A DNA stretch of 63,806 nt, filler included, from Reclinomonas americana ATCC 50394 (GCA_048213135.1; 6 parts of 5 records of this genome joined end to end with filler, not necessarily neighbours in it), one strand, 5' to 3'. Positions 10,792 through 50,281 are shown, numbered from the whole stretch's first letter. Made by a program: numbers and translations. The notes: generated by a model from the sequence alone, not told the origin.

Positions 10792-11895
10792 TCAGCACCG
10801 GAAAAGGACGACCTCGGCATCCTCGACAATGAAGCAGCGCAGAACCAGCTCGGCAAGACATCGTGAATCTGCTTCCTACTCGACTGCCCTCCTCTCCTCC
10901 AGCATTTCCTGCACAGCCTGCATGGCCGAGCGCGCAGCGTCGAGTTCGAGACAAGCAAGGCCACGCGGTGTGGACCACATTCGCACGCTATTGTCTTGGC
11001 CACCTGCACTCGCAATGTGGAGACCATCGGGAGAGACGGCCACAGACGACACCCACCCAGTGTGCCCCGCCAGCCGTCGCACTTCCTCTCCACTCTCCAG
11101 CGACCATACTCGCAAGGTGCTGTCTCCACTCCCACTCACGATATGCTGACAATCCNNNNNNNNNNNNNNNNNNNNTGTGTTGTCTCCACCCCCACTTACA
11201 ATGTACTGACTATCAGGGGTGACAGCGACTGACCAAACATATCCAGTGTGTCCTTCCAGCCGTCGCACCTCCTCCCCACTCGCCAGTGACCACACTCGTA
11301 CTGTGCAGTCCCAGCTCCCACTCACGATGTGATGACCATCTGGAGTAACAGCGACAAACCACACCTTAACATCGTGTCCCTCTAACCGTTGCACCTCCTC
11401 GCCACTCTCCAGCGACCACACACGCATGGTACAGTCTCCACCGCCACTCACAATGCGCTTTCCATCTGGGGTGACGGCGACACAATACACCCATCTAGTG
11501 TCTCTCTCTAGTCGTCGCACTTCTTCTCCGCTCGCCAGAGACCACAGTCGAACAGTGCTGTCCATGCACCCACCAACAATGTGCTGGCAATCGGGAGTGA
11601 CGGCGACGGACCTCACTGCAGCGGGACTCTGAATGATCTGTGTTGATCGCTTGAGGTGAGACGCACACGCACAGCAACGTTGGAAGACATGAACACACAA
11701 GCACACAAACAACAACCGCACGAATGCACAAACACAAGCACAAGAATGCACGCACAGACACCAACCACGCAAAAGTGCGCACACACTCACACCTTTGTTG
11801 TCATTCTCCGTGTGTGTGTGTGTGCGACTTGCTCGCTCGGGATTCTCACCGTTTCCCGCCTTTCTTCTCCCGCCTTGCTCTGAGACGTCGTCCAT
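10792..11895 (-). pseudogene. Array WD40 copy A with premature stop in the C-terminal tail (truncated allele or pseudogene)
   Basis: WD exon starts at 11637. An in-frame TAG at 10876-10878 precedes the otherwise intact DSRCLAELVLRCFIVEDAEVVLFRC. Repeat 2 has RD in place of GH. Small internal gap. Confidence 0.65.
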
Positions 11896-18390: not shown

Positions 18391-20441
18391 CCCTCACCAG
18401 GCTGCAACCAGCACTCCGCACACCATACAGCAGTATGAGAGCAATGTGGCTTCTTTGATGCGTGTGGGCTTTTGAAGACCGACATGGGACTCGTCGATGA
18501 GAAATAGGCAGAATGGACATGGTGGTGGTGGCTCGAGGTGGCGCTCCACTGCATCGCGCTGCTGTCCAGCAACACTCTCTTTCGACTGACCTGCATTATC
18601 TCTCAACGAGGACTGGCATGTCGGGCTGCTTGAATGTGCAGCTCTGGCCCAGCTGAGTTGCTGCCACGGCACACCCGAGAATCCAATGAGCACCGAGTCA
18701 TCGACTCCTTGGATCGGTCCACCGCGAGGTTGAGGTGATACAATAAAGAAAGAGAGCCACAAGGAACAAGAGAGGAACGACCAACACAGCAGCACAGCAG
18801 CACAGCGGTGGAAGAGGCAGCTGTGTTGTGAGACTCGCCTCCTGTCACCCAAGTCACAGTCAATGCCTCGCGCCTTCAATCATACTCACAGTCGGTCGGT
18901 GAATCGTCTCATGCGTGTACCGCGATGCACGAAACCACGTGTCTTCACATGCCAGTCACTTGCCAGCACGCCTGTGTTCAGATCACACACAGCACTGAGT
19001 CAGTCAATCTCCAAGTCCCGCCAACTTGTTCCTCAATGCAAGCGCAGAACACGCACTCACCAGGCCACGCGCGCATCTGCAGTCTCCCATGGCCATCACC
19101 ATCATTACTTGGCGGCGACAGCAGCAACCAAGAAGCGCACATCATCGATCCGCTCTGACTTGCCAACCGGGATCGAGAACATCCACCGACCAGGCCACCC
19201 ATCGGGAAACACGACACGCATGTGCACGCACCATGAGTAGATTGCCGACCACGCGTCTGCAGTCTTCCATGGCCACCAGCATCATCACTCGACAGAGACG
19301 GCGGCAGCCAAGGTGCGCACATCATCGATCCGCTCCGACTTGCCAGCCGGGATTGAAAACGATCCACCGACCAGGCCATCACGACACACATGTGTACACC
19401 CACTAATCCACGCTCTCCATGACGTGCACGGCCTGCATAATTGAGGTGAGTGGGAGAGAAAGAGGAGAGAGAGATAACGAAGAACAGGGCCACGCAACTG
19501 CTGAGTGCATGGTGGGATGCGAGTGGGGAGCCGAGTGAGTGAGGTGACGGTCGACAACGGGCAATGCACAGCACGCCTGTCATTACCACGACATGCTTTC
19601 CATGGTCTCTGCATGCCGGTGTGCTGTGAGCAAAGAATGGAGAACGTGGAGAGAAATCTGCTCTGTCTCACTGACAAACACACCGATCAGCATCTGATAC
19701 CAACATGCGTTTGTCAAGATGCAAGCCAAGGGACGCTCACACAACCATCCTGCAAGGGAGAGAAAGAGAGGAGAGTCAGTATGCAGGTATGCCACCTCAC
19801 ACACTTCGGCATCGGGAAGCTAACCATGGCCATGATGGACTGGCAGGATGGCAATCGGAACACGGTGAGCGGACCAGCATGTTCGACCTCGAGTGTGTGC
19901 AAGGAGGGGTGGATGACTGGGGAAGCAGATGAGCGCACAAAGGCAGGGAGATGGCGGAGAAAGAGATAGACTCTGCAGGAGGCAGGAAAAAGAGAGCTGA
20001 AAGACAGGCATTCTTCGCAGTCGCACGTGCACAATGGGAAGCAGAGTATAGAGGTGCCAAGGAGGTGCGCAAAACAAGACGCGAGGGAAACAGACAGCGG
20101 TGACTCGCTCTCATGAGGTACGTATATCAGCGACGAAAGATGCACGCACAACAGACATCACAACGAGGGGAAAAGAAATCACAGACTCCGCATACACAAA
20201 TGGAGGTGAGAAAGAGACACGTAAACAGAGGGAGACGTGCTTCACTACCTCTCTCTCACTCACATGATAGGGCAACAAGCACAGAGAACAATTCTGCATC
20301 ATCCACGTCGACTTCTCTTTCCCCTGTCGTCCTCTCTTTCCCCACCTGCAGCATGCACAACCACCCATTCTCCCTCGCACAACAAGAAAAACAACTCACG
20401 ATCACCAGCAGCCACCTTCTCCCTCTCTTCTACTCACCGAC

Positions 20442-21714
20442 TCAGCACCGGAAAAGGACGACCTCGGCATCCTCAACGATGAAACAGCGCAGAACCATCT
20501 CGGGAAGGCATCGAGAATCTACTTCATACTCCTGCATCTCTTGCACAGCTCGCATGGCCGAGCGCGCAGCGTCGAGCTCGAGGCGAGCGAGGCCACGCGG
20601 CGTGGACCACACTCTCACGGTCTCGTCGTAGCCACCCGCGCTCACAATGTGGAGACCATCGGGAGAGACGGCCACAGACGATACCCATCCAATGTGTCCC
20701 TCTAACCGTCGCACTTCCTCGCCACTTGCCAGAGACCACATCCGCACGGTGCTGTCCTCGCTCCCACTCACAATATGCTGACCGCTGGGAGTAACAGCGA
20801 CGGCGCACACCCTTCCAGTGTGTCCCTCCAACCGGCGAACTTCCATCCCACTTGCCAGTGACAACATTCGCACTGTCTCGTCCACACCGCCACTCACAAT
20901 GCGTCGACCATCGGGAGTGACAGAGAGCACCAAGCCAAAGTGCCCCTCCAACCGCAGCCTCTCCTCCCCACTCGCCAGCAACCACACCCGCATTGTGTTG
21001 TCTTCACCGCCGCTAACAATGTGGTGACCATCGGGGGTGACTGCCACAGACTTCACCCTTGCAGTGTGTCCCTGCAGCCGTCGCACATCCTTTTCATTCG
21101 CCAGCGACCACACCCGGATGGTGCTGTCTCCACCGCCACTCACGATGTGGTGACCATTGGGGGTTACGACGACACAATGCACCCATCCAGTGTGTCCCAC
21201 CAGCCGTCGCACCTCCATCCCGCTCTCCAGCAACCACACACGTAGGGTGTTGTCTCCACCTCCACTCACGATGTGCTGATTATCAGGGGTGACGGCGACA
21301 GACTGCAACCATGCAGTGTGTCCCACCAGCCGTCGCACCTCCTTGCCACTTGCCAGAGACCACACTCGAACGGTGCTGTCCATGCATCCACCAACAATGT
21401 GATTGCCGTCGGGAGTGATGGTGACGGATCCCACTACGACGAGACTCTGAATGATCTGTGCCGATCATTCGCGGTGAGACGCACGCACACAGCATCAACT
21501 TTCGAAGACATGCACAAGCACACCAATGCATGCACAGACACCAACCGCGCAAAAGTGCGCACACATTCACACCTTTGTTGCCATTCTCCTTGGTTGTGTG
21601 TGTGAGAGAGGGTGGTGCGTGTGTGAGAGAGGGTGTGTGTGTGTGATTTGCTCGCTCGGGATTGTCACCGTTTCCCGCCTTTCTTCTCCCGCCTTGCTCC
21701 GAGACGTCGTCCAT
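20442..21714 (-). CDS. Array WD40 copy D, complete: short leader, 7 WD40 repeats and conserved tail
   Basis: Open exon 20442-21455 with seven ~42-aa repeats after acceptor cag|ATCATTCAG. Putative start MDDV at 21714 (leader exon inferred). Confidence 0.88.
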
Positions 21715-23675
21715 CCCTCGCCAGGCTGCAGCCAGCACCTCACACAGCATACAGCAGTACTAGTATGAGAGCAATGTGGCTTCGTGTGCACGTGAGCTTT
21801 CGAAGACCGATTTGGGACTTGCCGATGAGAAATAGGCAGAATTGACATGCAAAGTGGTGGTGACACAAGGTGGCGCTCCACTGCATCGCGCTGCTGACCA
21901 GCGACACTCTCTTTCGACTAACCTGCATACTCTGCCAACGAGGACTGGCATGTCGACCTGCTTGGATACGGTTGTGGCCCTGGTGTGCTGATGCCACGGC
22001 ACACCCGAGAATCCATGGAGCACCGAGTCATCGACACCTCGAGCTCACCTCCTTGGATCGGCCCACAGCGAGGTTGACGAGGGCACGACGAAGAAAGAGA
22101 GCCACGCGGAACAGGAGAGCAGCGACCAGTACAGCAGCTGCGTCGTGAGGCTCGCCTCCTCTCACCCACCTCACAATCAATGCCTCGCGCCTTCATGATC
22201 AATCACACTCACAGTCGGTCGGTGCATTATCTCATGCATGCACTGTGTGGCACGGAACCACGTGTCTTCGCATGCCAGTGACGAGTCACTTACCAGCACG
22301 CCTGTCACACAGAATTGAGACAGTCAATCTCCAAGTCTCTCCAGCTGCAGCTTGTTCCTCAACACGAGTGTAGAACACGCACTCACCAGGCCACGCGCGC
22401 GTCTGCAGTCTCCCATGGCCATCACCATCATTACCTGGCGGCGACAGCAGCAACCAAGAAGCGCACATCATCGATCCGCTCTGACTTGCCAGCCGGGATT
22501 GAAAACGATCAACCGACCAGGCCACCATCGCACATCACGAAACGCATGTGTACACCCACCCAACCACGCACTCCATGACGTGCACGGCCTGCATAATTGA
22601 GGTGAGTGGGAGGGAAGGAGGAGAGAGAGATCACGAAGAACAGGGCCACACAACTGCTGAGTGCATGGTGGGATGCGAGTGGGGAGCCGAGTGAGTGAGG
22701 TGACGGTCGACAACGGGCAATGCACATCACGCCTGTCATCGTCACGGAACAACAACGACGAAGAACACGTGTATACAAGGTGTCTGCATGCCAGTGTGCT
22801 GTGAGCAAAGAATGGAGGAAGGAGAGAGATATCTACTCTGTCTCACTGACGAACACACCGATCAGCATCTGATACCAATTGCAACACGCGGTTTTGTCAA
22901 CAGGCAAGGCGAGGGACGGTTCTGCACACACATCCATCCTACGAGAGAGAGAGAGAGAAAGAGAGAGAGCAGAGTCAGCATGCAGTCATGCCACTTCGGC
23001 ATCGACATGCTCACCATGATGGACTGGCAATCGATGGCAATCGGAACACGGTGAGCGGACCAGCATGTTCGGCCTCGAGCGTGAGCGGCAAGGTGGGGTG
23101 GATGACTGGGGAAGCAGATAAGCGCACAAAGGAGGGAGACGGTGGAGAAAGAGAGAGACTCTGTAAGGGACAGAGAGAGAGAGAGAGAGAGCGGGATGAC
23201 ATGCATTCTTCAGAACCGGAAAGAGAATATCCGCGGCGCACAGGCACAATGGGAAGCAGGGCAGTGATGCCAAAGTGGTGCGCAAAAGAAGACGCGAGGA
23301 AACAGACAATGGCGACTCGCCCTCCTGAAGCGCATACACGAACAACGGAAGAAGCACGCACAACAGACATCACAACAAGACAAAAAACGCAAGAGACTCC
23401 CAGGTGATTCATCGAGCTTGCACAGAAAATGGAGGTGAAAAAGAGACACGCACACAGAGGAGACATGCTTCACACCCGCACACTCCCATTCACATGAAAG
23501 GGCAGCAAGCACGGGGGAACAATTCTTCATGATCAACAACGACCTCTCTCTCCTCCTCTGTCATCCTCTCTTCCCCACCTGCATCCCGCGTGATCACCCA
23601 CTCTCCCTCGCACGACACGAAAAAGAACTCACAATCACCAGCAGCCACCACTCTCCCTCTCTCCGACTCACCGAC

Positions 23676-24945
23676 TCAGCATCGGAAAAGGACGACCTCG
23701 GCATCCTCCGCGATGAAACAGCGCAGAACCAGCTCGGGAAGGCATCGATCCTCCTCGTCCTCCTGCATCTCCTGCACAGCCAGCATGGCCGAGCGCGCGG
23801 CATCGAGCTCGAGACGAGCAAGGCCACGCGGCGTAGACCACACTCGCACGGGCTTGTCGTAGCCACCCGCACTCACAATGTGGAGACCATTGGGAGAGAC
23901 GGCCACAGACAACACATATCCAATGTGTCCCTCCAACCGTCGCACTTCCTCGCCACTCTCCAGAGACCACACCCGAATGGTGTAGTCCTCACTTCCACTC
24001 ACAATATGCTGACCGTCGGGAGAGACGGCGATCGATAGTACAAATTCAGCGTGTCCCTCCAACCGTCTCAACTCCTCCCCACTTGCCAGAGACCACACTC
24101 TCACCGTGTTGTCCCTACTGCCACTCACGACGTGCTGACCATCGGGGGTGACTGCCACAGACTCCACCCTTGCAGTGTGTCCCTGCAGCCGTCGCACCTC
24201 CTCCCCGCTCGCCAGCAACCATACCCGCACTGTGTTGTCTTCACCCCCACTCACGATGCGTTGACCATTGGGAGTGACTGCAACAGACAACACCCATCCA
24301 GTGTGTCCCGCCAACCGTCGCACCTCCTCCCCACTCGCCAGAGACCACACCCGCACTGTGTCATCAAAGCCGCCGCTGACAACGTGCTGGCCATCAGGGG
24401 TGAAGGTGACAGACATCACAGCATTGGTGTGGCCTTCCAGCCGCAGCACCTCTTCTCCACTCTCCATCGACCACACACGCACGGTACAGTCTCCGCCCCC
24501 GCTGACAATAAGCTGACCATCAGGAGTGACGGCGACAGATTGCACCCAATCAGTGTGTCCCTCCAGCCGTCGCACCTCCTTGCCACTCGCCAGAGACCAC
24601 ACTCGAATCGTGTTGTCCATGCACCCACCAACAATGTGCTGGCAATCGGGAGTGACGGCGACGGACCGCACTGCAGCGGGACTCTGAATGATCTGCGTCG
24701 ATCATTCGCGGTGAGGCGCACATGCACAAACACAAAGAACAACAACCGCACACAAGCACGAGCACACGAATGCACGCACAGACACCAAACACGCAAAAGC
24801 GCGCACACACATTCACACCTTTGTTGTCATTCTCCGTGTGTGTGTGTGTGTGTGTGTGCGTGCGTGCGTGTGTGTGATTTGCTCGCTCGGGATTGTCACT
24901 GGTTCCCGCCTTTCTTCTCCCGCCTTGCTCTGAGACGTCGTTCAT
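23676..24945 (-). CDS. Array WD40 copy E, complete: 7 WD40 repeats and tail
   Basis: Open exon 23676-24692. Putative start MNDV at 24945. Confidence 0.88.
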
Positions 24946-27063
24946 CCCTCGCCAGGCTACAGCCAGCACCCCACACAGCATGCGATAGTATGGCTTTGTT
25001 GATGCCTGTGGGCTTTCAAAGACCGACATGGGACAGGTCGATGAGAAATCGTCAGAATTCGAATGGACATGCTGGCGACACAAGGTGGCGCTCCACTGCA
25101 TCGCGCTGCTGTCCAGCGACACTCTCTTTCTACTGCCCTGCATTCTCTCTCAACGAGGACTGGCATGTCGGGCTGCTTGGATATGCGGCTGTGGTCCAGC
25201 TGTGCTGATGCCACGGCACAGCACACTCGAGAATCCATGGGTCTTCGAAACCTCAAGCCTCCTAGGATCGGCCCACAGCGAAGCTGACGAGGCGCAAGTC
25301 ATGACTGCACGACGAAGAAGGAGAGTCACAGGGAACAGGAAAGCACAGCGATGGAAGAGACAGCTGTATCGCGAGACTCGCCTCCTCTCACCCAAGTCAC
25401 AGTCAACGCCTCGTGCCTTCAATCACACTCACAGTCGGTCGGTGCATTGTCTCATGCATGCACTGTGTGGCACGGAACCACGTGTTTTCGCATGCCAGTG
25501 ACGAGTCACTTGCCAGCACGCCTGTCACACAGAATTGAGACAGTCAATCTCCAAGTCTCTCCAGCTGCAGCTTGTTCCTCAACACGAGTGTAGAACACGC
25601 ACTCACCAGGCCACGCGCGCATCTGCAGTCTCCCATGGCCATCACCATCATTACTTGGCGGCGACAGCAGCAACCAAGAAGCGCACATCATCGATCCGCT
25701 CTGACTTGCCAACCGGGATCGAGAACCATCCACCGACCAGGCCACCCATCGGGACACACGACACGCATGTGTCCACCCATGAGTAGATTGCCGAGCACGT
25801 GCACGCGTCTGCAGTCTCCCACGGCCACCAGCATCATTACTCGACAGAGACGGCGGCAGCCAAGGTGCGCACATCATCGATCCGCTCCGACTTGCCAGCC
25901 GGGATTGAAAACGATCCACCGACCAGGCCACCAAGTCGCACATGTGTACACCCACTAATCCACGCTCTCCATGACGTGCACGGCCTGCATAATTGAGGTG
26001 AGTGGGAGGGAAGAAGGAAAGCGAGATCACGAAGAACAGGGCCACACAACTGCTGAGTGCACGGTGGGATGCGAGTGGGGAGCCGTGTGAGTGAGGTGAC
26101 AGCCGGGAATGGGCGATGCACATCGCGCCTGCCATCATCGCGGCCACCGAAAAGTACGTGCCTCCAAGTGTCTGCATGCCGGTGCACCATGAGAAAAAGG
26201 AATAGAGGAAGGAGAGAGACAAATCTGCTCTGTCTCAATGACGAACACACCGATCAGCACCTGAAACCAACACACGTTTGGGCAAGAGGCAAGCCAAGGG
26301 ACGGTTCTGTACACACATCCATCCTTCAAGGGAAAGAAAGGGTGAAAAGGAGCAGAGTCAGTATGTAGGTATGCCACCTCACACACTTCGGCATCGGGAA
26401 GCTCACCATGATGAACTGCCCAACACGATGGCTGAATCGCAGCCGGCGCATCATGAGCAGGCCAGCATCCTCGGCATCGAACGTGTGTGGGAAGGATGGG
26501 GTGGATGACTGGAGAGGCAAATGAGCGCACAAAGGAGGGAGACGGTGGAGAAAGAGAGACTCTACAAGGGACATGAAAGAGGGAGAGCGGATTGACATGC
26601 ATTCTTCAGGGCGGAAGGAGAATGTCCACGGCGCACATGCACGATGAGAGGAAGAAAAATGGCACCAAGAAGGTGAATCAAGACGCGAGAAAACAATCAT
26701 CGTATCTCGCTCACTGAGGCACTCACATGGGCGACGAAAGATGCACGCACAACAGACATCAAAAAAGACGAAAAAGACGCAAGAGATACCCAAGTGATTC
26801 ATCGCGCTGGCACACACAAACTGAGGTGAGAAGGAAACAAGCACACACACACACAGAGACATGCTTCACGACCTCTCACTCACATTTACGTGACAGGAAA
26901 AAACCGACGGGAGAGCTCCTCGTAAACAACAATCTCTGCCTTCCTCTGTCATCCTCTCTTCCCCCACCCGCACCCGCATAATCACCCACTCTCCCTCGCA
27001 AGACACGAAAAACAACTCACAATCACCAGTAGCCACCGCTCTCCCTCCCTCCGACTCACCAAC

Positions 27064-27514
27064 TCAGCACTGGAAAAAGACGACCTCGGCATCCTCGACG
27101 ATGAAACAGCGCAGAACCAGCTCGGGAAGGCATCGTGAATCTTCTTCTTCCTCCTGCATCTCCTGCACAGCTCGCATGGCCGAGTGCGCGGCGTCGAGCT
27201 CGAGACGAGCAAGGCCACGCGGCGTGGACCACACTCGCACCGTCTTGTCGTCGCCACCCGCACTCACAATGTGCTGACCATTGGGAGAGACGGCCACAGA
27301 CGACACCCATCCAGTGTGTCCCTCCAACCGTCGCACTTCCTCGCCACTTGCCAGAGACCATACCCGAATGGAGCTGTCTCCGCTCCCACTCACGACATGC
27401 TGGCCATCGGAGGTGACGGTGACAGACGATACCCAGTCAGTGTGTCCCTCCAGTCGGCGAATCTCTTCCCCACTTGCCAGTGACCACATCCGCACGGTGT
27501 TGTCCCAGCCCCCG
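27064..27514 (-). CDS. Array WD40 copy F, 3' part
   Basis: Last ~2.5 repeats plus tail ...VVFFQC*, cut by a contig linker. Confidence 0.8.
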
Positions 27515-27614
27515 NNNNNNNNNNNNNNNNNNNNNNNNNNNNNNNNNNNNNNNNNNNNTTAATTAATTAANNNNNNNNNNNNNNNNNNNNNNNNNNNNNN
27601 NNNNNNNNNNNNNN

Positions 27615-28818
27615 CTCGGGAAGGCATCGTGAATCTACTTCTTCCTCCTGCATCTCCTGCACGGCCCGCATGGCCGAGCGCGCGGCGTCGAGTTCGAGAC
27701 GAGCAAGGCCGCGTGGCGTGGACCACACTCGCACGGTCTTGTCGTAGCCACCCGCACTCACAATGTGCTGACCATCAGGAGAGACGGCGACAAAATACAC
27801 CCATCCAGTGTGTCCCTCCAGTCGTCGTATTTCCTCGCCACTTGCCAGAGACCATACCCGCACTGTCTTGTCCTCGCTCCCACTCACGACATGATGGCCG
27901 TCGGGAGTGATGGCGACAGACCACACCGCACCAGTGTGTCCCTCTAACCGTCGCACTTCCTCGCCACTCGCCAGAGACCACACCCGCACGGTGTTGTCCC
28001 GACTCCCACTAAAAATATGCCGACAATCTGGAGTGACAGTAACAGAGTACACCCATCCAGTGTGTCCCGCCAACCGTCGCACCTCCTCCCCACTCGCCAT
28101 CAACCACACTCGCACTATGTTATCGTGGCTACCACTCACTATATGCTGACTATCGGGGGTGACGGCGACAGACCGCACCGTGTCGGTGTGTCCTTCCATC
28201 CGTCGCACCTCCTCTCCACTCGCCAACGACCACACCCGCACGGTGTCGTCTCCACCCCCACTCACCACATGTTGACCATCAGGGGTAAGGGCGACAGACG
28301 TCACAGTGTCGGCGTGTCCAACCAGCCGTCGCACCTCCTTGCCACTCGCCAGCAACCACACACGCACGGTACATTCTCCACTTCCACTGACGATGTGCTG
28401 ACCATCGGGGGTGACGGCGACACAATACACCCATTCGAATTCAGTGTGTCCCACCAGCCGTCGCACCTCCTTGCCACTCGCCAGTGACCACACTCGAACG
28501 GTACTGTTCAAGCATCCACCGACAATGTGCTTGCCATCGGGAGTGATGGTAACAGACCGCACTCTAGCGGGACTCTGAATGATCTGTGCCGATCATTCGC
28601 GGTGAGACGCACATGCACAAACACAAAGAACAACAACCGCACGTGCACACGATGCACAAGCACACGAATGCACGCACAGACACCAACCACGCAATAGTGC
28701 GCATACATTCACACCTTGGTTGCCATTCCCCGTGTATGTGTGTGATTGATTGTGCTCGCTCCGGATTGTCACTGTTTCCCGCCTTTCTTCTCCCGCCTTG
28801 CTCTGAGACGTCGTCCAT
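27615..28818 (-). CDS. Array WD40 copy G, 7 repeats, end of tail in gap
   Basis: Open exon from 28583 to the gap at ...DSRCLPE. Putative start at 28818. Confidence 0.87.
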
Positions 28819-31083
28819 CCCTCGACAGGCTGCAGCCAGCAAGCCACACAACATACAGCAGCATGCGATAGTGTGGCTTTGTTGATGCTTGTGGGCTTTT
28901 GAAGACCGACATGGGACTTGTCGATGGGAAATCGGCAGAATGGACAAGCAGGGTGGTGGCTCGAGGTGGCGCTCCACTGCACCGTGCTGCTGTTCAGCGA
29001 CACTCTCTTTCGACTGACCTGCATTATCTCTGAACAAGGACTGGAATGTCGGGCTGCTTGGATACGCAGCTGTGGCCCTGGTGTGCTGATGCCAAGGCAC
29101 ACCCGAGAATCCATGGAGCACAAACGAGTCATGGATACCTCACACCTCCTTGGATCGGCCCACAGCGAAGCTGACGAGGTGCACGTCATGATGGTACGAC
29201 GAAGAAGGAGAGTCACAGGGGACAGGAGAGGAGCGACCAGTACAGTAGCACGTGCACAGCGATGGAGCGTCGTGAGGCTCGCCTCCTCTCACCCACCTCA
29301 CAATCAATGCCTCGTGCCTTCAATCACACTCACAGTCAGTCGGTGAATCGTCTCATGCATGTACTGTGTGGCACGGAACCACGTGTCTTCGCATGCCAGT
29401 GACGAGTCACTTGCCAGCACGCCTGTCCCACAGAATTGAGTCAGTCAATCTCCAAGTCTCACCAACTTGCTCCTCAACGCAGATGCAGAACACGTACGCA
29501 CCAGGCCACGCGCGCGTCTGCAGTCTCCCATGGCCATCACCATCATTACTTGGCGGCGACAGCAGCAACCAAGAAGCGCACATCATCGATCCGCTCTGAC
29601 TTGCCAACCGGGATTGAAAACGATCCACCGACCAGGCCACCCATCGGGNNNNNNNNNNNNNNNNNNNNGACAGAGACGGCGGCAGCCAAGGTGCGCACAT
29701 CATCGATCCGCTCCGACTTGCCAGCCGGGATCGAAAACGATTCACCAACCAAGCTACCATTGTACCACCTCGTCACACACTCCATGACGTGCACGGCCTG
29801 CATAATTGAGGTGAGTGGGAGGGAAGGAGGAGAGAGAGATCACGAAGTCGAAGAACAGGGCCACACAACTGCTGAGTGCATTGGTGGGATGCGAGTGGGG
29901 AGCCGAGTGAGTGAGGTGACGGTCGACAACGGGCGATGCACATCACGCCTGTCATCGCCACGACATGCTTTCCATGGTCTCTGCATGCCGGTGTGCTGTG
30001 AGCAAAGAATGGAGGACGGGGAGAGAAATCTGCTCTGTCTTACTGACAAGCACACCGATCAGCACCTGATACCAACACGCGTTTGTCAAGAAGCAAGCCA
30101 AGGGACGCTCACACAACCATCCTGCAAGGGAGAGAAGGAGCAGAGTCAGTATGCAGGTATGCCACCTCACACATTTCGGCATCGGGAAGCTCACCATGAT
30201 GGACTGGCAGGATGGCAATCGAAACACGGTGAGCGGACCAGCATGTTCGGCCTCGAGCGTGTGCGGAAAAGAGGGGTGGATGGCTGGGGAAGCAGATAAG
30301 CGCACAAAGGCAGGGAGACGGTGGAGAAAGAGATAGACTCTGCAGGAGGCAGGAAAAAGAGAGCTGAAAGACAGGCATCCTGCAGAGACGGAAAGAGAAT
30401 GTCCGCGGCTCACAGGCACAATAGGAAGCAGAGTATAGCGGAGCCAAGGAGGTGCGAAAAACAAGACGCGAGGGAAACAGACAACGGTGACTCGCTCTNN
30501 NNNNNNNNNNNNNNNNNNNNNNNNNNNNNNNNNNNNNNNNNNNNNNNNNNNNNNNNNNNNNNNNNNNNNNNNNNNNNNNNNNNNNNNNNNNNNNNNNNNN
30601 NNNNNNNNNNNNNNNNNNNNNNNNNNNNNNNNNNNNNNNNNNNNNNNNNNNNNNNNNNNNNNNNNNNNNNNNNNNNNNNNNNNNNNNNNNNNNNNNNNNN
30701 NNNNNNNNNNNNNNNNNNNNNNNNNNNNNNNNNNNNNNNNNNNNNNNNNNNNNNNNNNNNNNNNNNNNNNNNNNNNNNNNNNNNNNNNNNNNNNNNNNNN
30801 NNNNNNNNNNNNNNNNNNNNNNNNNNNNNNNNNNNNNNNNNNNNNNNNNNNNNNNNNNNNNNNNNNNNNNNNNNNNNNNNNNNNNNNNNNNNNNNNNNNN
30901 NNNNNNNNNNNNNNNNNNNNNNNNNNNNNNNNNNNNNNNNNNNNNNNNNNNNNNNNNNNNNNNNNNNNNNNNNNNNNNNNNNNNNNNNNNNNNNNNNNNN
31001 NNNNNNNNNNNNNNNNNNNNNNNNNNNNNNNNNNNNNNNNNNNNNNNNNNNNNNNNNNNNNNNNNNNNNNNNNNNNNNNNNNN

Positions 31084-31401
31084 GGAGACCGCGCCGTGCG
31101 GGTATGGTCTCTGGCGAGTGGAGAGGAGGTGCGACGGTTGGAGGGACACACCGACACGGTGCGGTCTGTCGCCGTCTCTCCCGATGGTCTCCACATTGTA
31201 AGCGCGGGTGGCTACGACGAGACCGTGCGAGTGTGGTCCACACCGCGTGGCCTTGCTCGTTTCGAACTCGACGCCGCGCGCTCGGCCATGCTGGCTATGC
31301 AGGAGATGCAGGAGGAAGAAGTAGATTCACGATGCCTTCCCGAGCTGGTTCTGCGCTGTTTCATCGTCGAAGATGCCGAGGTCGTCCTTTTCCGGTGCTG
31401 A
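31084..31401 (+). CDS. Array WD40 copy H, 3' part (opposite orientation)
   Basis: GDRAVRVWSLASGEEVRRLEGHTDTVRSV...VVLFRC*. Confidence 0.8.
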   Translation, partial: GDRAVRVWSLASGEEVRRLEGHTDTVRSVAVSPDGLHIVSAGGYDETVRVWSTPRGLARFELDAARSAMLAMQEMQEEEVDSRCLPELVLRCFIVEDAEVVLFRC

Positions 31402-32331
31402 GGTGGTGAGTCGGAGGAAGGGAAGGTGGCTACTGGTGATCGTGAGTTGTTTTTTCGTGTCTTGCGAGGGAGAGTGGGTGCCTATGCGGGTGCTGGAGGG
31501 AGAAGAGAGGACGACAGAGGAAGGGAGAGAAGTCGACGTGGATGATGCAGAATTGTTCTCTGTGCTTGTTGCCCTATCATGTGAGTGAGAGAGAGGTAGT
31601 GAAGCACGTCTCCCTCTGCATGCTTGCCTCTTTCTCACCTCAATTGTGTATGCGAGCGAGATGAATCAATTGGAGCCTGTGATTTCTTTTCCCCTCGTTG
31701 TGATGTCTGTTGTGCGTGCATCTTTCGTCGCTGATATACGTGCCTCATGNNNNNNNNNNNNNNNNNNNNNNNNNNNNNNNNNNNNNNNNNNNNNNNNNNN
31801 NNNNNNNNNNNNNNNNNNNNNNNNNNNNNNNNNNNNNNNNNNNNNNNNNNNNNNNNNNNNNNNNNNNNNNNNNNNNNNNNNNNNNNNNNNNNNNNNNNNN
31901 NNNNNNNNNNNNNNNNNNNNNNNNNNNNNNNNNNNNNNNNNNNNNNNNNNNNNNNNNNNNNNNNNNNNNNNNNNNNNNNNNNNNNNNNNNNNNNNNNNNN
32001 NNNNNNNNNNNNNNNNNNNNNNNNNNNNNNNNNNNNNNNNNNNNNNNNNNNNNNNNNNNNNNNNNNNNNNNNNNNNNNNNNNNNNNNNNNNNNNNNNNNN
32101 NNNNNNNNNNNNNNNNNNNNNNNNNNNNNNNNNNNNNNNNNNNNNNNNNNNNNNNNNNNNNNNNNNNNNNNNNNNNNNNNNNNNNNNNNNNNNNNNNNNN
32201 NNNNNNNNNNNNNNNNNNNNNNNNNNNNNNNNNNNNNNNNNNNNNNNNNNNNNNNNNNNNNNNNNNNNNNNNNNNNNNNNNNNNNNNNNNNNNNNNNNNN
32301 NNNNNNNNNNNNNNNNNNNNNNNNNNNNNNN

Positions 32332-32532
32332 GCACCCGCCAACGATGTGCTGGCCATCGGGAGTGACGGTGACCGACGACACCCAGTCAGATTGTCCATC
32401 CAGCCGTCGCACTTCCTCGCCACTCGCCAGAGACCACACCCGCACTGTGTTGTCCCAGCCCCCGCTAACAATGTGTCGACAATCTGGAGTGACAGTAACA
32501 GAGTACACCCATCCAGTGTGTCCCGCCAACCG
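32332..32532 (-). CDS. Isolated array WD40 fragment
   Basis: RLAGHTGWVYSVTVTPDCRHIVSGGWDNTVRVWSL... between gaps. Confidence 0.75.
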
Positions 32533-33577
32533 NNNNNNNNNNNNNNNNNNNNNNNNNNNNNNNNNNNNNNNNNNNNNNNNNNNNNNNNNNNNNNNNNNNN
32601 NNNNNNNNNNNNNNNNNNNNNNNNNNNNNNNNNNNNNNNNNNNNNNNNNNNNNNNNNNNNNNNNNNNNNNNNNNNNNNNNNNNNNNNNNNNNNNNNNNNN
32701 NNNNNNNNNNNNNNNNNNNNNNNNNNNNNNNNNNNNNNNNNNNNNNNNNNNNNNNNNNNNNNNNNNNNNNNNNNNNNNNNNNNNNNNNNNNNNNNNNNNN
32801 NNNNNNNNNNNNNNNNNNNNNNNNNNNNNNNNNNNNNNNNNNNNNNNNNNNNNNNNNNNNNNNNNNNNNNNNNNNNNNNNNNNNNNNNNNNNNNNNNNNN
32901 NNNNNNNNNNNNNNNNNNNNNNNNNNNNNNNNNNNNNNNNNNNNNNNNNNNNNNNNNNNNNNNNNNNNNNNNNNNNNNNNNNNNNNNNNNNNNNNNNNNN
33001 NNNNNNNNNNNNNNNNNNNNNNNNNNNNNNNNNNNNNNNNNNNNNNNNNNNNNNNNNNNNNNNNNNNNNNNNNNNNNNNNNNNNNNNNNNNNNNNNNNNN
33101 NNNNNNNNNNNNNNNNNNNNNNNNNNNNNNNNNNNNNNNNNNNNNNNNNNNNNNNNNNNNNNNNNNNNNNNNNNNNNNNNNNNNNNNNNNNNNNNNNNNN
33201 NNNNNNNNNNNNNNNNNNNNNNNTTCTTCGTCGTACCATCATCAACCTCGCTGTGGGCCGATCCAATGAGGCTTGAGGTTTCGCAGACTCGCCGCTCAAT
33301 GGGTTCTCGGGAAAATGCCGTGGCATCAGCTGCACATCCAAGCAGCATGGCATGCCAGTCCTCGTCGGCAGAGAATGCAGGTCAGTCAAAAGAGAGTGTC
33401 GCTGGTCAGCAGCACGGTGCAGTGGAGCGCCACCTTGTGTCGCCAGCATGTCCATTCTGCCGACTTCGCATCGACCTGTCCCATGTCGGTCTTCAAAAGC
33501 CCACACGCATCAAAGAAGCCACATTGCTCTCATACTGTTGTATGGTGTGCGGGGTGCTGGTTGCAGCCTGGTGAGGG

Positions 33578-34312
33578 ATGGACGACGTCTCAGAGCAAGG
33601 CGGGAGAAGAAAGGCGGGAAACAGTGACAATCCCGAGCGAGCAAATCACACACGCACGTTACGTGCACACAGAGAATGTCAACAAAGGTGAATGTGTGCG
33701 CACTTTTGCGTGGTTGGTGTCTGTGTGTTCATTGGTGTGCGTGTGTATGTGTGCGGTTGTCGTTTGTGTGTTTGTGTATGTGCGTCTCACCGCGAATGAT
33801 CGACGCAGATCATTCAGAGTCTCACTTCTGTGGTGAGGTCCATTGCCGTCACTCCCGATGGCAAACACATTGTCGGTGGATGTATGGACAAGACGATTCG
33901 AGTGTGGTCTCTGGCGAGTGGCAAGGAGGTGCGACGGCTAGATGGACACACTGGTTCGGTGTGGTCTGTCGCCGTCACTCTTGATAGTCAGCTTATTGTC
34001 AGTGGCGGTGGAGACTGTACCGTGCGTGTGTGGTCGCTGGAGAGTGGCGAGGAGGTGCGACGGTTGACGGGTCACTCGCGGGAGGTGTGGTCTGTCGCTG
34101 TTACCTCTGATGGCCAGCACATTGTTAGCGGGAGCTGGGACTACACAGTGAGAGTGTGGTCTCTGGCAAGTGGGGAAGAGCTGCGACGGCTGGAGGGACA
34201 CACCGACATGGTGCGGTCTGTCGCCGTCACTTCTGATGGTCACCACATTGTCAGTGGCGGTGAAGACAACACAGTGCGGGTATGGTTGCTGGCGAGCGGG
34301 GAGGAGGTGCGA
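33578..34312 (+). CDS. Array WD40 copy I, 5' part (opposite orientation)
   Basis: Leader ATG at 33578, acceptor at 33808 and four repeats before a gap. Confidence 0.82.
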
Positions 34313-36565
34313 NNNNNNNNNNNNNNNNNNNNNNNNNNNNNNNNNNNNNNNNNNNNNNNNNNNNNNNNNNNNNNNNNNNNNNNNNNNNNNNNNNNNNNNN
34401 NNNNNNNNNNNNNNNNNNNNNNNNNNNNNNNNNNNNNNNNNNNNNNNNNNNNNNNNNNNNNNNNNNNNNNNNNNNNNNNNNNNNNNNNNNNNNNNNNNNN
34501 NNNNNNNNNNNNNNNNNNNNNNNNNNNNNNNNNNNNNNNNNNNNNNNNNNNNNNNNNNNNNNNNNNNNNNNNNNNNNNNNNNNNNNNNNNNNNNNNNNNN
34601 NNNNNNNNNNNNNNNNNNNNNNNNNNNNNNNNNNNNNNNNNNNNNNNNNNNNNNNNNNNNNNNNNNNNNNNNNNNNNNNNNNNNNNNNNNNNNNNNNNNN
34701 NNNNNNNNNNNNNNNNNNNNNNNNNNNNNNNNNNNNNNNNNNNNNNNNNNNNNNNNNNNNNNNNNNNNNNNNNNNNNNNNNNNNNNNNNNNNNNNNNNNN
34801 NNNNNNNNNNNNNNNNNNNNNNNNNNNNNNNNNNNNNNNNNNNNNNNNNNNNNNNNNNNNNNNNNNNNNNNNNNNNNGGGGAGTCACAGGGGACAGAAGA
34901 GGAGCGACCAGTACAGTAGCACGTGCACAGCGATGGAAGAGGCAGTTGTGTCGCGAGACTCGCCTCCTCTCACCCAAGTCACAATCAGTGCTTCGCGCCT
35001 TCAATCATACTCACAGTCGGTCGGTGCATTGTCTCATGCATGCACTGTGTGGTACGGAACCACGTGTCTTCGCATGCCAGTCACTTGCCAGCACGCCTGC
35101 CGCACAGAATTGAGTTAGTCAATCTCCAAGTCTCACCAACTTACTCCTCAACGCAGATGCAGAACACGTACGCACCAGGCCACGCACGCGTCTGCAGTCT
35201 TCCATGGCCATCACCATCATTACTTGGCGGCGACAGCAGCAACCAAGAAGCGCACATCATCGATCCGCTCTGACTTGCCAACCGGGATTGAAAACGATCC
35301 ACCGACCAGGCCACCCATCGGGAAACACGACACGCATGAGTCCACCCATGAGTAGATTGCCGAGCACGCGTCTGCAGTCTTCCATGGCCACCACCATCGT
35401 CACTCGGCAGAGACGGCGGCAGCCAAGGTGCGCACATCATCGATCCGCTCCGACTCGCCAGCCGGGATTGAAAACGATCCACCGACCAGGCCACCAAGTC
35501 GCACAGCACGGCACGCATGTGTACATCCACCCAGCCACGTTCTCCATGACGTGCACGACCTGCATGGATGAGGTGAGTGGGAGGGAAGGAGGAGAGAGAG
35601 ATCACGAAGAACAGGGCCACACAACTGCTGAGTGCATGGTGGGATGCGAGTGGGGAGCCGAGTGAGTGAGGTGACGGTCGACAACGGGCAATGCACAGCA
35701 CGCCTGTCATCGCCACGACATGCTTTCCATGGTCTCTGCATGCCGGTGTGCTGTGAGCAAAGAATGGAGGACGGGGAGAGAAATCTTCTCCGACTCACTG
35801 ACAAACACACCAATCAGCACCTGATACCGACACGCGTTTGTCAAGAAGCAAGCCAAGGGACGCTCACACAACCATCCTGCAAGGGAGAGAAGGAGCAGAG
35901 TCAGTATGCAGGTATGCCACCTCACACACTTCGGCATCGGGAAGCTCACCATGATGGACTGGCAATCGATCGCAATCGGAACACGGTGAGCAGACCAGCA
36001 GCTCGACCTCGAGCGTGTGCGGCAAGGAGGGGTGGATTACTGGGGAATCAGATGAGCGCACAAAGGCAGGGAGATGGCGGAGAAAGAGATAGACTCTGCA
36101 GGAGGCAGGAAAGAGAGAGCTGAAAGACAGGCATCCTGCAGAGACGGAAGGAGAATGTCCGCGGCTCACAGGCACAATGGGAAGCAGAGTATGGCGGTGC
36201 CAAGGAGGTGCGAAAAACAAGACGCGAGGAAACAGACAACGGTGACTCGCTCTCCTGAGGCACGTATATCAGCGACGAAAGATGCACGCACAACAGACAT
36301 CACAACGAGGGGAAAAAATCACAGACTCCGCATACACAAATGGAGGTGAGAAAGAGACACGTAAACAGAGGGAGACGTGCTTCACTACCTCTCTCTCACT
36401 CACATGATAGGGCAACAAGCACAGAGAACAATTCTGCATCATCCACGTCGACTTCTCTTTCCCCTGTCGTCCTCTCTTTCCCCACGTGCACCTGCACCAT
36501 GCACAACCACCCATTCTCCCTCGCACAACAAGAAAAACAACTCACATTCTCCAGCAGCCGCCTTC

Positions 36566-37293
36566 TCAGCACCGAAAAAGGACGACCTCGGCATCTTCGA
36601 CGATAAAACAGCGCAGAACCAGCTCGGAAAGGCATCGTGAATCTACTTCATCCTCCAGCATCTCCTGCACAGCCCGCGTGGCCGACCGCGTGGCGTCGAG
36701 TTCAAGGCGAGCAAGGCCACGCGGCGTGGACCACACTCGCACAGTCTCGTCGTAGCTACTCGCACTCACAATGTGCTGACCATCGGAAGAGACGGCCACA
36801 CACGATACCCATCCGTCATGACCCTCCAACCGTCGCACCTCCTCGCCACTCTCCAGAGACCATACCCGCACTGTGTTGTCTCCACTCCCACTCACGATGT
36901 GCTGACCATCGGGAGTGACGGTGACACAACACACCCATCCAGTGTGTCCTTCTAGTCGTCGCACTTCTTCTCCACTCGTCAGTGACCACACTCTCACCGT
37001 TTTGTCCCTACAGCCACTCACGATGTGCTGACCATCGGGGGTGACAGCGACAGACTGCACCCAGGAAGTGTGTCCTTCCAACCGTCGCACTTCTTCGCCG
37101 CTCGCCAGCAACCATACCCGCACTGTGTTGTCTCCACCCCCACTCACAACGTGCTTACCATCGGGGGTGACTGCCACAGACCACACCGAAATAGCGTGTC
37201 CCTCTAACCGTCGCACCTCCTCGCCACTCTCCAGCGACCACAGACATACTGTCTTGTCGCTGCTGCCGCTCACAATGTGTTGACCATTGGGGG
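36566..37293 (-). CDS. Array WD40 copy J, 3' part
   Basis: About 4.5 repeats plus tail (CLSELVLRCF variant). Confidence 0.85.
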
Positions 37294-38048
37294 NNNNNNN
37301 NNNNNNNNNNNNNNNNNNNNNNNNNNNNNNNNNNNNNNNNNNNNNNNNNNNNNNNNNNNNNNNNNNNNNNNNNNNNNNNNNNNNNNNNNNNNNNNNNNNN
37401 NNNNNNNNNNNNNNNNNNNNNNNNNNNNNNNNNNNNNNNNNNNNNNNNNNNNNNNNNNNNNNNNNNNNNNNNNNNNNNNNNNNNNNNNNNNNNNNNNNNN
37501 NNNNNNNNNNNNNNNNNNNNNNNNNNNNNNNNNNNNNNNNNNNNNNNNNNNNNNNNNNNNNNNNNNNNNNNNNNNNNNNNNNNNNNNNNNNNNNNNNNNN
37601 NNNNNNNNNNNNNNNNNNNNNNNNNNNNNNNNNNNNNNNNNNNNNNNNNNNNNNNNNNNNNNNNNNNNNNNNNNNNNNNNNNNNNNNNNNNNNNNNNNNN
37701 NNNNNNNNNNNNNNNNNNNNNNNNNNNNNNNNNNNNNNNNNNNNNNNNNNNNNNNNNNNNNNNNNNNNNNNNNNNNNNNNNNNNNNNNNNNNNNNNNNNN
37801 NNNNNNNNNNNNNNNNNNNNNNNNNNNNNNNNNNNNNNNNNNNNNNNNNNNNNNNNNNNNNNNNNNNNNNNNNNNNNNNNNNNNNNNNNNNNNNNNNNNN
37901 NNNNNNNNNNNNNNNNNNNNNNNNNNNNNNNNNNNNNNNNNNNNNNNNNNNNNNNNNNNNNNNNNNNNNNNNNNNNNNNNNNNNNNNNNNNNNNNNNNNN
38001 NNNNNNNNNNNNNNNNNNNNNNNNNNNNNNNNNNNNNNNNNNNNNNNC

Positions 38049-38175
38049 TTTTGGCAAGTGGGGAAGAAGTGCGACGACTGGATGGACACACTGGTTCGGT
38101 GTGGTCTGTCGCCGTCACTCCCAATGGCCAGCAGATAGTGAGTGGGTGTGGAGACTGTACCGTACGTGTGTGGTC
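38049..38175 (+). CDS. Isolated array WD40 repeat fragment
   Basis: LASGEEVRRLDGHTGSVWSVAVTPNGQQIVSGCGDCTVRVW between gaps. Confidence 0.7.

Positions 38176-40247: not shown

Positions 40248-40358
<111 letters not shown>

Positions 40359-50210: not shown

Positions 50211-50281
<71 letters not shown>

What the first reader, a model, noticed from the sequence alone, without database searches (positions are those of the whole stretch)
20990..38175. Individual WD repeats appear shuffled between paralogues and positions
Seen: RRLQGHTARV[K/E]SVAVTPDG is repeat 4 in copy D but repeat 5 in copy E. RLAGHTGWVYSVTVTPDCRHI is identical in copy G and the 32332 fragment, but with different downstream halves (FSGSRDN vs VSGGWDN). 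LDGHTGSVWSVAVT occurs in copy I and at 38049. GHTDTVRSV is repeat 4 of G and the last repeat of H. First (IVGGCMD-type) and last (SAGGYD-type) repeats largely stay position-specific. Inference: unequal crossover or gene conversion among internal repeats builds new binding surfaces while the 7-blade count is kept.
Basis: partly seen in the sequence, partly recalled or inferred. Interest (0 to 1): 0.7.

Follow-up and report, generated by a model that had tools for sequence, protein, structure and literature searches.

The report
WD40 blades mostly fixed, rarely swapped
A family of small seven-bladed WD40 propeller genes in a protist-like draft genome keeps each blade largely in its own position, and only a few short stretches look copied between blades, a rare exchange of a kind already known from fungal WD40 receptors.

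Summary
Each pair also concentrates nucleotide identity in the 5' half of the 126-nt repeat, e.g. D4/E5 61 of 62 nt against 44 of 64 outside.

Whole repeats are not freely shuffled. Repeat 1 (5 of 5) and repeat 7 (7 of 7) are clades, and repeats 2, 4 and 5 largely cluster by position. Mean repeat identity is 73%, and all 3 complete genes have 7 blades.

What moves is a 30-62 nt "d-a loop" cassette in a few repeats (D4, H7), plus one whole repeat (D3). Support is good pair by pair but weak after all-pairs correction (best global p 0.14; excess-of-tracts p 0.015-0.025).

Central blades are about twice as diverged as the non-coding DNA of the same units, in 10 of 10 gene pairs, so ancestry along the unit is mosaic.

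Caveats:
- The window is a concatenate of scaffolds.
- Two of the four examples are 128- and 201-nt islands between gaps.
- No reads could test the assembly.

This scan already found the same gene family on other pieces of this genome.

Verdict: rare short-tract gene conversion on an old, position-specific scaffold.

The parts
20445..21434 (-). Copy D, WD40 exon: 7 repeats plus a 50-aa tail. D3 (21096-21221) is repeat-2-like. D4 (20970-21095) is a chimera. D5 (20850-20969) lacks 2 codons and has W changed to L.
21025..21086 (-). D4 5' tract (repeat nt 10-71), 61/62 identical to E5; covers the strand d end, the d-a loop and strand a
23679..24671 (-). Copy E, WD40 exon: 7 repeats plus tail (protein P0001)
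24136..24197 (-). E5 5' tract, the likely donor type for D4. J3 at position 5 is the next closest, 86% in the 5' half.
27067..27513 (-). Copy F, last 2.3 repeats plus tail, cut by the scaffold end (linker 27515-27614)
27615..28562 (-). Copy G, 7 repeats, tail cut by the scaffold start. G4 is 28092-28217 and G5 is 27966-28091.
28161..28193 (-). G4 tract (repeat nt 25-57), identical over 33 nt to the last repeat of H
31087..31398 (+). Copy H: only the last repeat plus tail, starting 3 nt after a 585-N gap. The tract 31144-31176 is position-4-like; the 3' half is last-repeat type.
32332..32532 (-). 201-nt island between two gaps. Its first unit is 92.8% identical to G5 (0/54 mismatches in nt 18-71, 8/57 outside). 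Its position in a gene is unknown.
33833..34312 (+). Copy I, repeats 1-4, then a gap
36569..37291 (-). Copy J, last 4.5 repeats plus tail. Positions are counted from the C-terminus.
38048..38175 (+). 128-nt island between two gaps holding one repeat-2-like unit. It is preceded by LLAS, not the SLAS that ends 5 of 5 first repeats. It has 0/40 mismatches to I2 in nt 22-61.
10795..11622 (-). Copy A, on another scaffold of the concatenate. It holds a 20-N gap and an in-frame stop in the tail at 10876-10878.
21570..21584 (-). Inferred mini-exon 1 of D (ATG GCA ACA AAG, then a GTG donor), followed by an intron of about 125 nt ending in CAG before ATCATTCAG. The same motif occurs at 11790, 18284, 24816, 28712 and 38936 (-) and at 33676 (+).
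   Evidence: no RNA evidence
27515..27614 (.). N44-TTAATTAATTAA-N44 linker, an artificial joint between scaffolds. Identical linkers sit at 18028, 40371, 60911 and 62357.

Best explanation
The region holds members of an old family of two-exon genes. Each encodes a stand-alone seven-blade WD40 propeller with an orphan tail of about 50 aa, arranged in units of about 3.2 kb.

The seven blades are position-specific and predate the gene duplications. Diversity sits at six codons per blade (8, 12, 13, 15, 31, 33), which lie at the strand-d end, in the d-a loop and at the strand-a start, and in the b-c turn.

On this stable scaffold, short non-reciprocal transfers (gene conversion of roughly 30-62 nt, once a whole 126-nt unit) occasionally copy the 5' cassette of one blade into a blade at another position, in the same or a neighbouring paralogue. 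This re-pairs it with the resident 3' cassette and gives a new blade surface without changing the blade number.

Shown: the mosaic patterns, the positional clustering, and central blades more diverged than the flanks.
Inferred: conversion as the mechanism, the direction E5-type into D4, and any effect on binding.
For: - Positional scaffold: repeat 1 clade 5/5 (99/99), repeat 7 clade 7/7 (100/99), a repeat 2 clade holding 5/5 repeat-2 units, and repeat 4 and 5 groups. Position labels change 9 times (3' halves) and 15 times (5' halves) against shuffled means of 25.5 and 20.4.
- Mosaics: D4/E5 1/62 mismatches inside the tract against 20/64 outside, p=0.0001. The half-trees disagree for D4, H-last and A2 with support of 85-99.
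- AU tests reject D4 with I4 alone (p=0.037) and with all position-4 units (p=0.017) on the 5' half, and H-last with G4 and I4 (p=0.0135) on the 3' half.
- Single-triplet p values are 1.1e-5 for D4 and 2.1e-5 for H-last.
- Tract-bearing pairs are in excess, p=0.015 and 0.025.
- The D4 tract (1.6% mismatch) is younger than the D/E units (14.3% non-coding mismatch).
- The assembly resolved a 108-nt exact repeat between units D and E. The exact runs shared by D4 and E5 are only 33 and 28 nt.
- 3' cassettes identical at sites 30, 31 and 33 are in register in 9 of 10 pairs. Of the 6 identical 5' cassette pairs, 1 is out of register and 2 are of unknown position.
- Central repeats 3-6 differ by 21-33% against 10-20% for upstream non-coding DNA, in 10 of 10 gene pairs. 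For D against E, Fisher p=6e-10, and dS is 0.57 against 0.16 in repeat 7.
- The variable sites fall at the strand-d end, in the d-a loop and at the strand-a start, and in the b-c turn of a confident model (pLDDT 89.5).
- The same kind of event (an 88-bp conversion tract, chimeric units, re-pairing of codon pairs 7/9 and 25/27) was observed directly in Podospora (PMC2873952, section 10, read).
Against: - No single tract survives correction over all pairs: best global p=0.14, run test 0.10, 3SEQ-like corrected 0.11-0.39 over 24,100 triplets.
- PHI is only p=0.019 and 0.037 at small windows, and 0.28 at window 20.
- 7 of 10 AU tests do not reject the alternative placement, so each mosaic is rejected from one side only.
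- An in-register test on D, E and G gave a best p of 0.02 in 6 tests.
- Column permutation assumes exchangeable sites. Position-specific constraint on one half of a blade could mimic tracts.
- H-last begins 36 nt from a gap, and two examples are unplaced islands.
- dN/dS at the variable codons is about 1.1-1.5 at 3 of 7 positions and below 1 or saturated at the rest, so adaptive value is not shown.
- No reads were available to confirm the assembly.
Confidence: 0.6

Rival explanations
1. Pure birth-and-death evolution with strict positional orthology. The genes duplicated as whole units and blades never exchanged. The shared motifs are retained ancestral or common states (GHTGWV is the commonest cassette), or chance coincidences at a handful of variable sites on an invariant scaffold.
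For: - Strong positional clades.
- In-register matches are best for 27 of 36 repeats, and 8 of the 9 exceptions are within 3 points.
- No tract is significant after all-pairs correction.
- The E4/G5 tract (42 nt) lies in the most conserved part of the repeat.
- An earlier follow-up on another piece of this genome called the family old, stable paralogues (e1-7451766).
Against: - D4/E5 share rare states (Q8, A12, R13, found in no other of the 30 full repeats) and 61/62 nt including all synonymous sites. The same repeats differ at 20/64 nt outside the tract, and D4's 3' half is 90% identical to I4.
- D3 is 85% identical to G2 against 76% in register.
- Central blades are more diverged than non-coding flanks in 10 of 10 pairs. 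Simple unit duplication followed by purifying selection does not predict this.
Confidence: 0.2
2. Podospora-type rampant concerted evolution. Blades are continually exchanged within and between all family members by unequal crossover and conversion, and this is the main, ongoing generator of new binding faces.
For: - The variable codon pairs 13/15 and 31/33 flank conserved V14 and D32 and are 18 codons apart, the same spacing as HNWD codons 7/9 and 25/27 (PMC1805685 passages).
- Chimeric blades exist.
- In-register identity of the central blades (67-79%) is close to the 73% background between any two blades, which scrambling would produce.
- Donors could lie in other arrays of this genome, which I could not search.
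Against: - Mean inter-repeat nucleotide identity is 73% with a maximum of 93%, against up to 100% in HNWD (PMC1805685 passages).
- Repeats group by position, not by gene: the best same-gene match never beats both the in-register and the out-of-register match.
- The blade count is 7 in 3 of 3 complete genes.
- ts:tv in the central blades is 81:74 against 168:104 in non-coding DNA, as expected of old, saturated divergence.
Confidence: 0.1
3. Assembly artefact. The mosaics come from mis-joined short-read contigs in a repeated gene family, and some 'paralogues' are misplaced or misoriented fragments.
For: - 29 N runs, and the window is a concatenate of scaffolds.
- In 27615-40370 the strand alternates between small contigs.
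- The 32332 and 38048 pieces are 201- and 128-nt islands, and H-last starts 36 nt from a gap.
Against: - D and E lie in one gap-free 9.4-kb scaffold (18128-27514).
- The assembler resolved a 108-nt exact repeat between their units, whereas D4 and E5 share exact runs of only 33 and 28 nt.
- The tract exists in two different contexts on both sides, which a path switch cannot create.
- Repeats differ by about 27%, which is easy to assemble.
Confidence: 0.08

Closest known systems
WD-repeat arrays of the Podospora anserina HNWD/NWD family (het-d, het-e, het-r): PMC1805685 (passages read), PMC2873952 (abstract and section 10 read)
   Same: - 42-residue WD units with two variable codon pairs flanking conserved residues, 18 codons apart, in the top-face loops.
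- Chimeric units that join the 5' pair of one unit to the 3' pair of another. Podospora showed an 88-bp conversion tract; here the tracts are 33-62 nt.
- Exchange both within a gene and between paralogues.
   Different: - Here the units are 73% identical on average, not up to 100%.
- They cluster by position rather than evolving in concert.
- The blade number is fixed at 7 in 3 of 3 genes, against 5-12 and polymorphic in Podospora.
- There is no HET or NACHT part: the inferred gene has a 4-codon exon 1, the propeller, and an orphan tail.
- Positive selection is not shown.
- There is no RIP-like transition bias.
Reclinomonas americana (jakobid) EST-derived protein P0124 (EukProt EP00694)
   Same: It is the only hit to the tail among 1.84 billion cluster representatives: 73% identity, E=6.9e-10. 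It has the same junction ...VWSTP.GLAR... and the same CLPEMVLRCFIVE motif, and it is transcribed.
   Different: It is a 116-aa fragment with one and a fraction repeats. Its last repeat has an internal-type SGSWD turn instead of SAGGYD. Nothing can be said about blade order.
Exon shuffling in LRR/TPR candidate receptors of the brown alga Ectocarpus (PMC3341825; search listing and start of abstract only)
   Same: A non-animal, non-plant eukaryote in which repeat modules of candidate binding proteins are proposed to be reshuffled.
   Different: In Ectocarpus the repeat modules are reported as exons and the proteins carry NB-ARC or similar domains, according to the start of the abstract. Here all seven blades lie in one exon, and the exchange is of sub-repeat tracts.

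Membership tests
WD40 seven-blade beta-propeller (Pfam PF00400) | Multiple WD40 repeats above Pfam's threshold | tested here: met
   7, 6 and 6 matched stretches with E-values of 1e-79, 1e-67 and 4e-77 for copies E, D and G
WD40 seven-blade beta-propeller (Pfam PF00400) | Seven four-stranded blades in the fold | tested here: met
   AlphaFold2 model of copy E: 27 strands in groups of four, propeller pLDDT about 97, mean 89.5, pTM 0.84. This is a prediction, not a solved structure.
Podospora HNWD-type concertedly evolving WD arrays | Units extremely similar within and between genes (up to 100% identity) | tested here: not met
   Mean 73%, median 72%, maximum 93% nucleotide identity among 40 units
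Podospora HNWD-type concertedly evolving WD arrays | Units do not cluster as positional orthologues (concerted evolution) | tested here: not met
   Clades for positions 1, 2, 4, 5 and 7. Label changes are 9 and 15 against shuffled means of 25.5 and 20.4.
Podospora HNWD-type concertedly evolving WD arrays | Variable repeat number | tested here: not met
   3 of 3 complete copies have 7 units. Variation within a population is not testable here.
Podospora HNWD-type concertedly evolving WD arrays | Two pairs of top-face codons under positive selection | tested here: inconclusive
   The same geometry of variable sites is present (13/15 and 31/33). dN/dS is 1.15, 1.12 and 1.55 at positions 2, 4 and 7, and below 1 or saturated at the other four. 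Scaffold codons give 0.14-0.31.
Podospora HNWD-type concertedly evolving WD arrays | STAND architecture (HET plus NACHT N-terminal to the repeats) | tested here: not met
   An in-frame stop lies 10 codons upstream of the propeller. A conserved ATG mini-exon with a GT...AG intron lies roughly 125-185 nt upstream in 7 of 7 copies with an intact 5' end. No long ORF or Pfam domain was found in the 2 kb between genes. There is no RNA evidence.
Podospora HNWD-type concertedly evolving WD arrays | Chimeric units made by sub-repeat conversion or fusion | tested here: met
   D4 (E5 5' tract 61/62 nt with a position-4 3' half) and H-last (G4/I4 5' tract with a last-type 3' half). Global significance is weak.

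The most novel reading that the evidence does not exclude
The 5' half of each blade (strand d end, d-a loop, strand a; about 60 nt) may be a mobile cassette. It would be exchanged by short-tract conversion among the many arrays of this family across the genome, while the 3' half stays anchored to its blade position. The result would be a germline, combinatorial way of building new propeller faces in a stand-alone binder family of a jakobid-like protist. The donors of the strongly diverged central blades would then lie in arrays I could not search.
Probability: 0.15. Interest if true: 0.65.

Novelty: new member of a known kind. Interest (0 to 1): 0.33.

Why it matters
If the rare cassette transfers are real, they show that the Podospora way of making new WD40 binding faces also operates far outside fungi. 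That mechanism re-pairs the two top-face loop cassettes by sub-repeat gene conversion. Here it would work at a low rate, and in a protein with no NLR part.

Just as useful is the negative result. This family is an old, position-specific seven-blade scaffold, not a rapidly shuffling repertoire. That tempers the "protist immune repertoire" readings attached to the same family on other pieces of this genome.

The contrast between homogenised flanks and diverged central blades makes one question testable with a better assembly: is diversity in the central blades actively retained?

Tried and rejected
- Whole-genome search: no genome is held for this window, so donors in other arrays could not be sought.
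- Sequencing runs: one listed holder with a 0.05 share of words; no RNA holder listed. Laying it gave 12 low-depth contigs (8 listed, 119-245 nt) at 90-99% likeness, none spanning D4 or E5. Uninformative.
- The search for homologous proteins with copy E: 2,055 generic WD40 hits, best 56% identity, none with the tail.
- The search for related loci in genome contigs: 80 prokaryotic WD40 loci at 61% identity or less, no family member.
- Tail-only word search among longer proteins: 62 candidates, none scored.
- Tail against Pfam: 0 families.
- Zero-mismatch run test, scored tract test, and 3SEQ-like scan of 24,100 triplets: no result significant after global correction.
- In-register three-gene mosaic test: best p=0.02 of 6 tests.
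- RIP-like hypermutation as the cause of central-blade divergence: rejected, ts:tv 81:74 in the centre against 168:104 in non-coding DNA.
- The 38048 island as the missing repeat 2 of copy J or of the 38725 fragment: the fragment ends TGG+T while the island starts with C, and the strands differ, so no join could be made.
- The IVGG ending of the 32332 island as a first-repeat-type half: it differs from the internal type by a single codon (AGC/GGC), so it carries no weight.
- Rfam scan of 18128-27514: only a sub-threshold miRNA-family match on a GT repeat.
- ATG ORFs in the D/E spacer: none conserved or convincing.


Full report
WHAT THE WINDOW IS

The 63,806-nt window contains 29 runs of N, 9,089 N in total. 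Five of them have the exact form N44-TTAATTAATTAA-N44, at 18028, 27515, 40371, 60911 and 62357. From my own knowledge, this is the six-frame-stop spacer used to string separate scaffolds into one record.

The evidence in the sequence agrees. WD40 genes are cut exactly at these joints: copy F ends at 27514, and copy G's tail starts at 27615. So the "array" is at least three independent scaffolds:
- 1-18027, with copy A.
- 18128-27514, with copies D, E and F, gap-free.
- 27615-40370, with G, H, I and J and two small islands, and many gaps.

No whole genome is held, and no usable reads exist.

THE GENES

One 126-nt repeat finds 48 blastn matches in the window. Copies D, E and G are complete, each with 7 WD40 units followed by a tail of about 50 aa. 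Pfam sees 6-7 WD40 stretches at E-values of 1e-67 to 1e-79. A model of copy E is a confident seven-blade propeller (mean pLDDT 89.5, propeller about 97) with a lower-confidence helix at residues 284-305.

The propeller ORF has no ATG, and an in-frame stop lies 10 codons upstream. A motif ATG-nCA-ACn-AAG|GTG lies roughly 125-185 nt upstream, followed by a CAG acceptor directly before ATCATTCAG. It is conserved in 7 of 7 copies whose 5' end is present. I infer a two-exon gene (MxTK + IIQS...), but there is no RNA evidence.

The tail has no Pfam family. Its only hit among 1.84 billion cluster representatives is a 116-aa EST-derived fragment of the jakobid Reclinomonas americana (73% identity, E=6.9e-10). 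Earlier notes of this scan describe the same family on several other pieces of this genome.

CHECKING THE OBSERVATION

All four motif statements are literally true. At nucleotide level each pair has its identity packed into the 5' half of the unit:
- D4/E5: 1/62 mismatches (nt 10-71) against 20/64 outside, p=0.0001.
- G5/32332 island: 0/54 against 8/57, p=0.012.
- I2/38048 island: 0/40 against 18/74, p=0.00035.
- G4/H-last: 0/33 against 24/93, p=0.0023.

- The best tract (D4/E5) has global p=0.14.
- A zero-mismatch run test gives a best global p of about 0.10.
- A 3SEQ-like scan of 24,100 triplets gives uncorrected p=1.1e-5 for D4 (E5|I4) and 2.1e-5 for H-last (G4|D7), but 0.23 and 0.39 after correction.
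- PHI gives p=0.019, 0.037 and 0.28 for windows of 5, 10 and 20 sites.
- The number of tract-bearing pairs is in excess: 46 against 17.9 (p=0.015) and 13 against 3.7 (p=0.025).

The signal is real but modest. Units of 126 nt give little power.

DO REPEATS CLUSTER BY POSITION?

Largely yes. In the whole-unit tree (38 rows):
- Position 1 is a clade of 5/5 (99/99) and position 7 a clade of 7/7 (100/99).
- A clade at 89/94 holds all 5 position-2 units plus D3 and the 38048 island.
- {I4, E4, J2} are position 4 (92/82).
- {J3, E5, D4} group at 94/82.

In-register matches are best for 27 of 36 units. Of the 9 exceptions, only D3 is clear (85% to G2 against 76% in register); the other 8 differ by 3 points or less.

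Splitting the unit at nt 75 is revealing. The 3' halves need 9 changes of position label (minimum 6, shuffled mean 25.5, p<=0.001). The 5' halves need 15 (minimum 5, shuffled mean 20.4, p=0.004).

Three units change partners between the halves with good support:

| Unit | 5' half | 3' half |
|---|---|---|
| D4 | with E5, 99/96 | with I4, 85/91 |
| H-last | with I4/G4/E3/G3, 95/93 | inside position 7, 98/94 |
| A2 | with J4, 98/89 | inside position 2, 96/87 |

AU tests reject three placements: D4 with I4 alone on the 5' half (p=0.037), D4 with the position-4 units on the 5' half (p=0.017), and H-last with G4/I4 on the 3' half (p=0.0135). The other 7 of 10 tests are not significant. The split point was chosen after seeing the data.

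At protein level, units identical at the three 3' variable sites are in register in 9 of 10 pairs. Of the 6 pairs identical at the four 5' variable sites, 3 are in-register last repeats, 1 is out of register, and 2 involve islands.

WHERE THE VARIATION SITS

Among 23 internal units the most variable residues are 15, 12, 13, 33, 31 and 8. By the model's strands these lie at the end of strand d, in the d-a loop and at the start of strand a, and on either side of the conserved Asp of the b-c turn.

Pairs 13/15 and 31/33 flank conserved V14 and D32 and are 18 codons apart. Positively selected codons 7/9 and 25/27 of the Podospora units have the same geometry, and those map to the top interaction face (PMC1805685 passages; PMC2873952 section 10).

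dN/dS at these six codons is 1.15, 1.12 and 1.55 at positions 2, 4 and 7, and below 1 or saturated elsewhere. Scaffold codons give 0.14-0.31. The sites are fast or relaxed; positive selection is not demonstrated.

MOSAIC ANCESTRY ALONG THE UNIT

Between the adjacent units D and E:

| Segment | Mismatches |
|---|---|
| Non-coding DNA | 14.3% (272/1906) |
| Repeat 7 | 8.5% |
| Tail | 10.9% |
| Repeats 3-6 | 26.5% (132/498) |

The contrast between repeats 3-6 and non-coding DNA gives Fisher p=6e-10. Synonymous divergence is 0.57 in repeats 3-6 against 0.16 in repeat 7.

The same holds in 10 of 10 gene pairs: central blades 21-33%, upstream non-coding DNA 10-20%. Central in-register identity is thus about the 73% background between any two blades. 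ts:tv is 81:74 there against 168:104 in non-coding DNA, which speaks for old or imported divergence rather than a transition-biased hypermutation.

Either the flanks and edge blades have been homogenised while the central blades were kept apart, or the central blades were overwritten from diverged donors. I cannot tell which without the rest of the genome. An in-register test on D, E and G alone is weak (best p=0.02 of 6).

ASSEMBLY

D and E lie in one gap-free scaffold. The assembler resolved a 108-nt exact repeat between their units, whereas D4 and E5 share exact runs of only 33 and 28 nt. The tract also stands in two different contexts on both sides. A chimera is therefore unlikely for D4.

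It is less easy to exclude for H-last, which starts 36 nt from a gap. The two islands cannot be placed at all. The 38048 island is preceded by LLAS, while 5 of 5 first repeats end SLAS, and it could not be joined to the neighbouring fragment.

READING

The best account is an old, position-specific seven-blade scaffold with rare, short, non-reciprocal transfers of the 5' cassette (and once a whole unit, D3) between positions and paralogues. The D4 tract (1.6% mismatch) is younger than the D/E duplication (14.3%).

Conversion is preferred to unequal crossover because 3 of 3 complete genes keep 7 blades. This is the event type seen directly in Podospora mutants: an 88-bp tract, chimeric units, and re-pairing of the two codon pairs (PMC2873952 section 10).

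However, the defining features of that system are tested here and not met: near-identical units, concerted evolution, variable number, and the NACHT architecture. So it works like HNWD in kind, at a much lower rate, and it is not a member.

Two full-text searches for hypervariable or shuffled WD40 arrays outside fungi returned only the Podospora and fungal-NLR papers and a brown-alga LRR/TPR paper. That is weak evidence that the protist family is undescribed.

Noticed in passing
18028-18127, 27515-27614, 40371-40470, 60911-61010, 62357-62456: Five identical N44-TTAATTAATTAA-N44 spacers. The window is a concatenate of separate scaffolds, so the order, orientation and adjacency of genes across these joints are artificial (copies F and G are cut by one of them).
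   Followed up: yes
21570-21584 (-); also 11790, 18284, 24816, 28712, 38936 (-) and 33676 (+): A conserved 4-codon mini-exon (ATG nCA ACn AAG) with a GTG donor and an intron of roughly 125-185 nt ending in CAG, just before the propeller exon. Without it the propeller ORF has no ATG. No RNA evidence.
   Followed up: partly
22293-22400 and 25513-25620: A 108-nt block is 100% identical between the D and E spacers, inside a region of about 300 nt that is 96-100% identical. It is also conserved upstream of copies A and G on other scaffolds. No Rfam match and no convincing ORF; it contains several GT-donor-like sites.
   Followed up: partly
10876-10878 (-) and 11404-11529 (-): Copy A has an in-frame stop inside its tail, and its second repeat has RD in place of the GH dipeptide. 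It may be a decaying copy.
   Followed up: no
20850-20969 (-): Blade 5 of copy D lacks two codons in strand a and has Leu in place of the signature Trp (RMLSLAS). It is the longest branch in every tree.
   Followed up: no
41189-42046 (+): Copy L, on a fourth scaffold, is a much more diverged seven-repeat WD40 gene (about 54% protein identity to E). It continues into a different, Pro/Gly/Ser-rich C-terminus instead of the family tail.
   Followed up: no
P0124 (public protein, not in the window): The only public relative of the tail is an EST-derived fragment from the jakobid Reclinomonas americana. This suggests the window's organism is a jakobid-like flagellate and that the family is transcribed in a relative.
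   Followed up: partly
49522-52170 (+) and 53162-54664 (-): An unrelated WD40 ORF (best Pfam match the WDR41 beta-propeller) and a class-III aminotransferase fragment lie on the fourth scaffold, both interrupted by N gaps.
   Followed up: no
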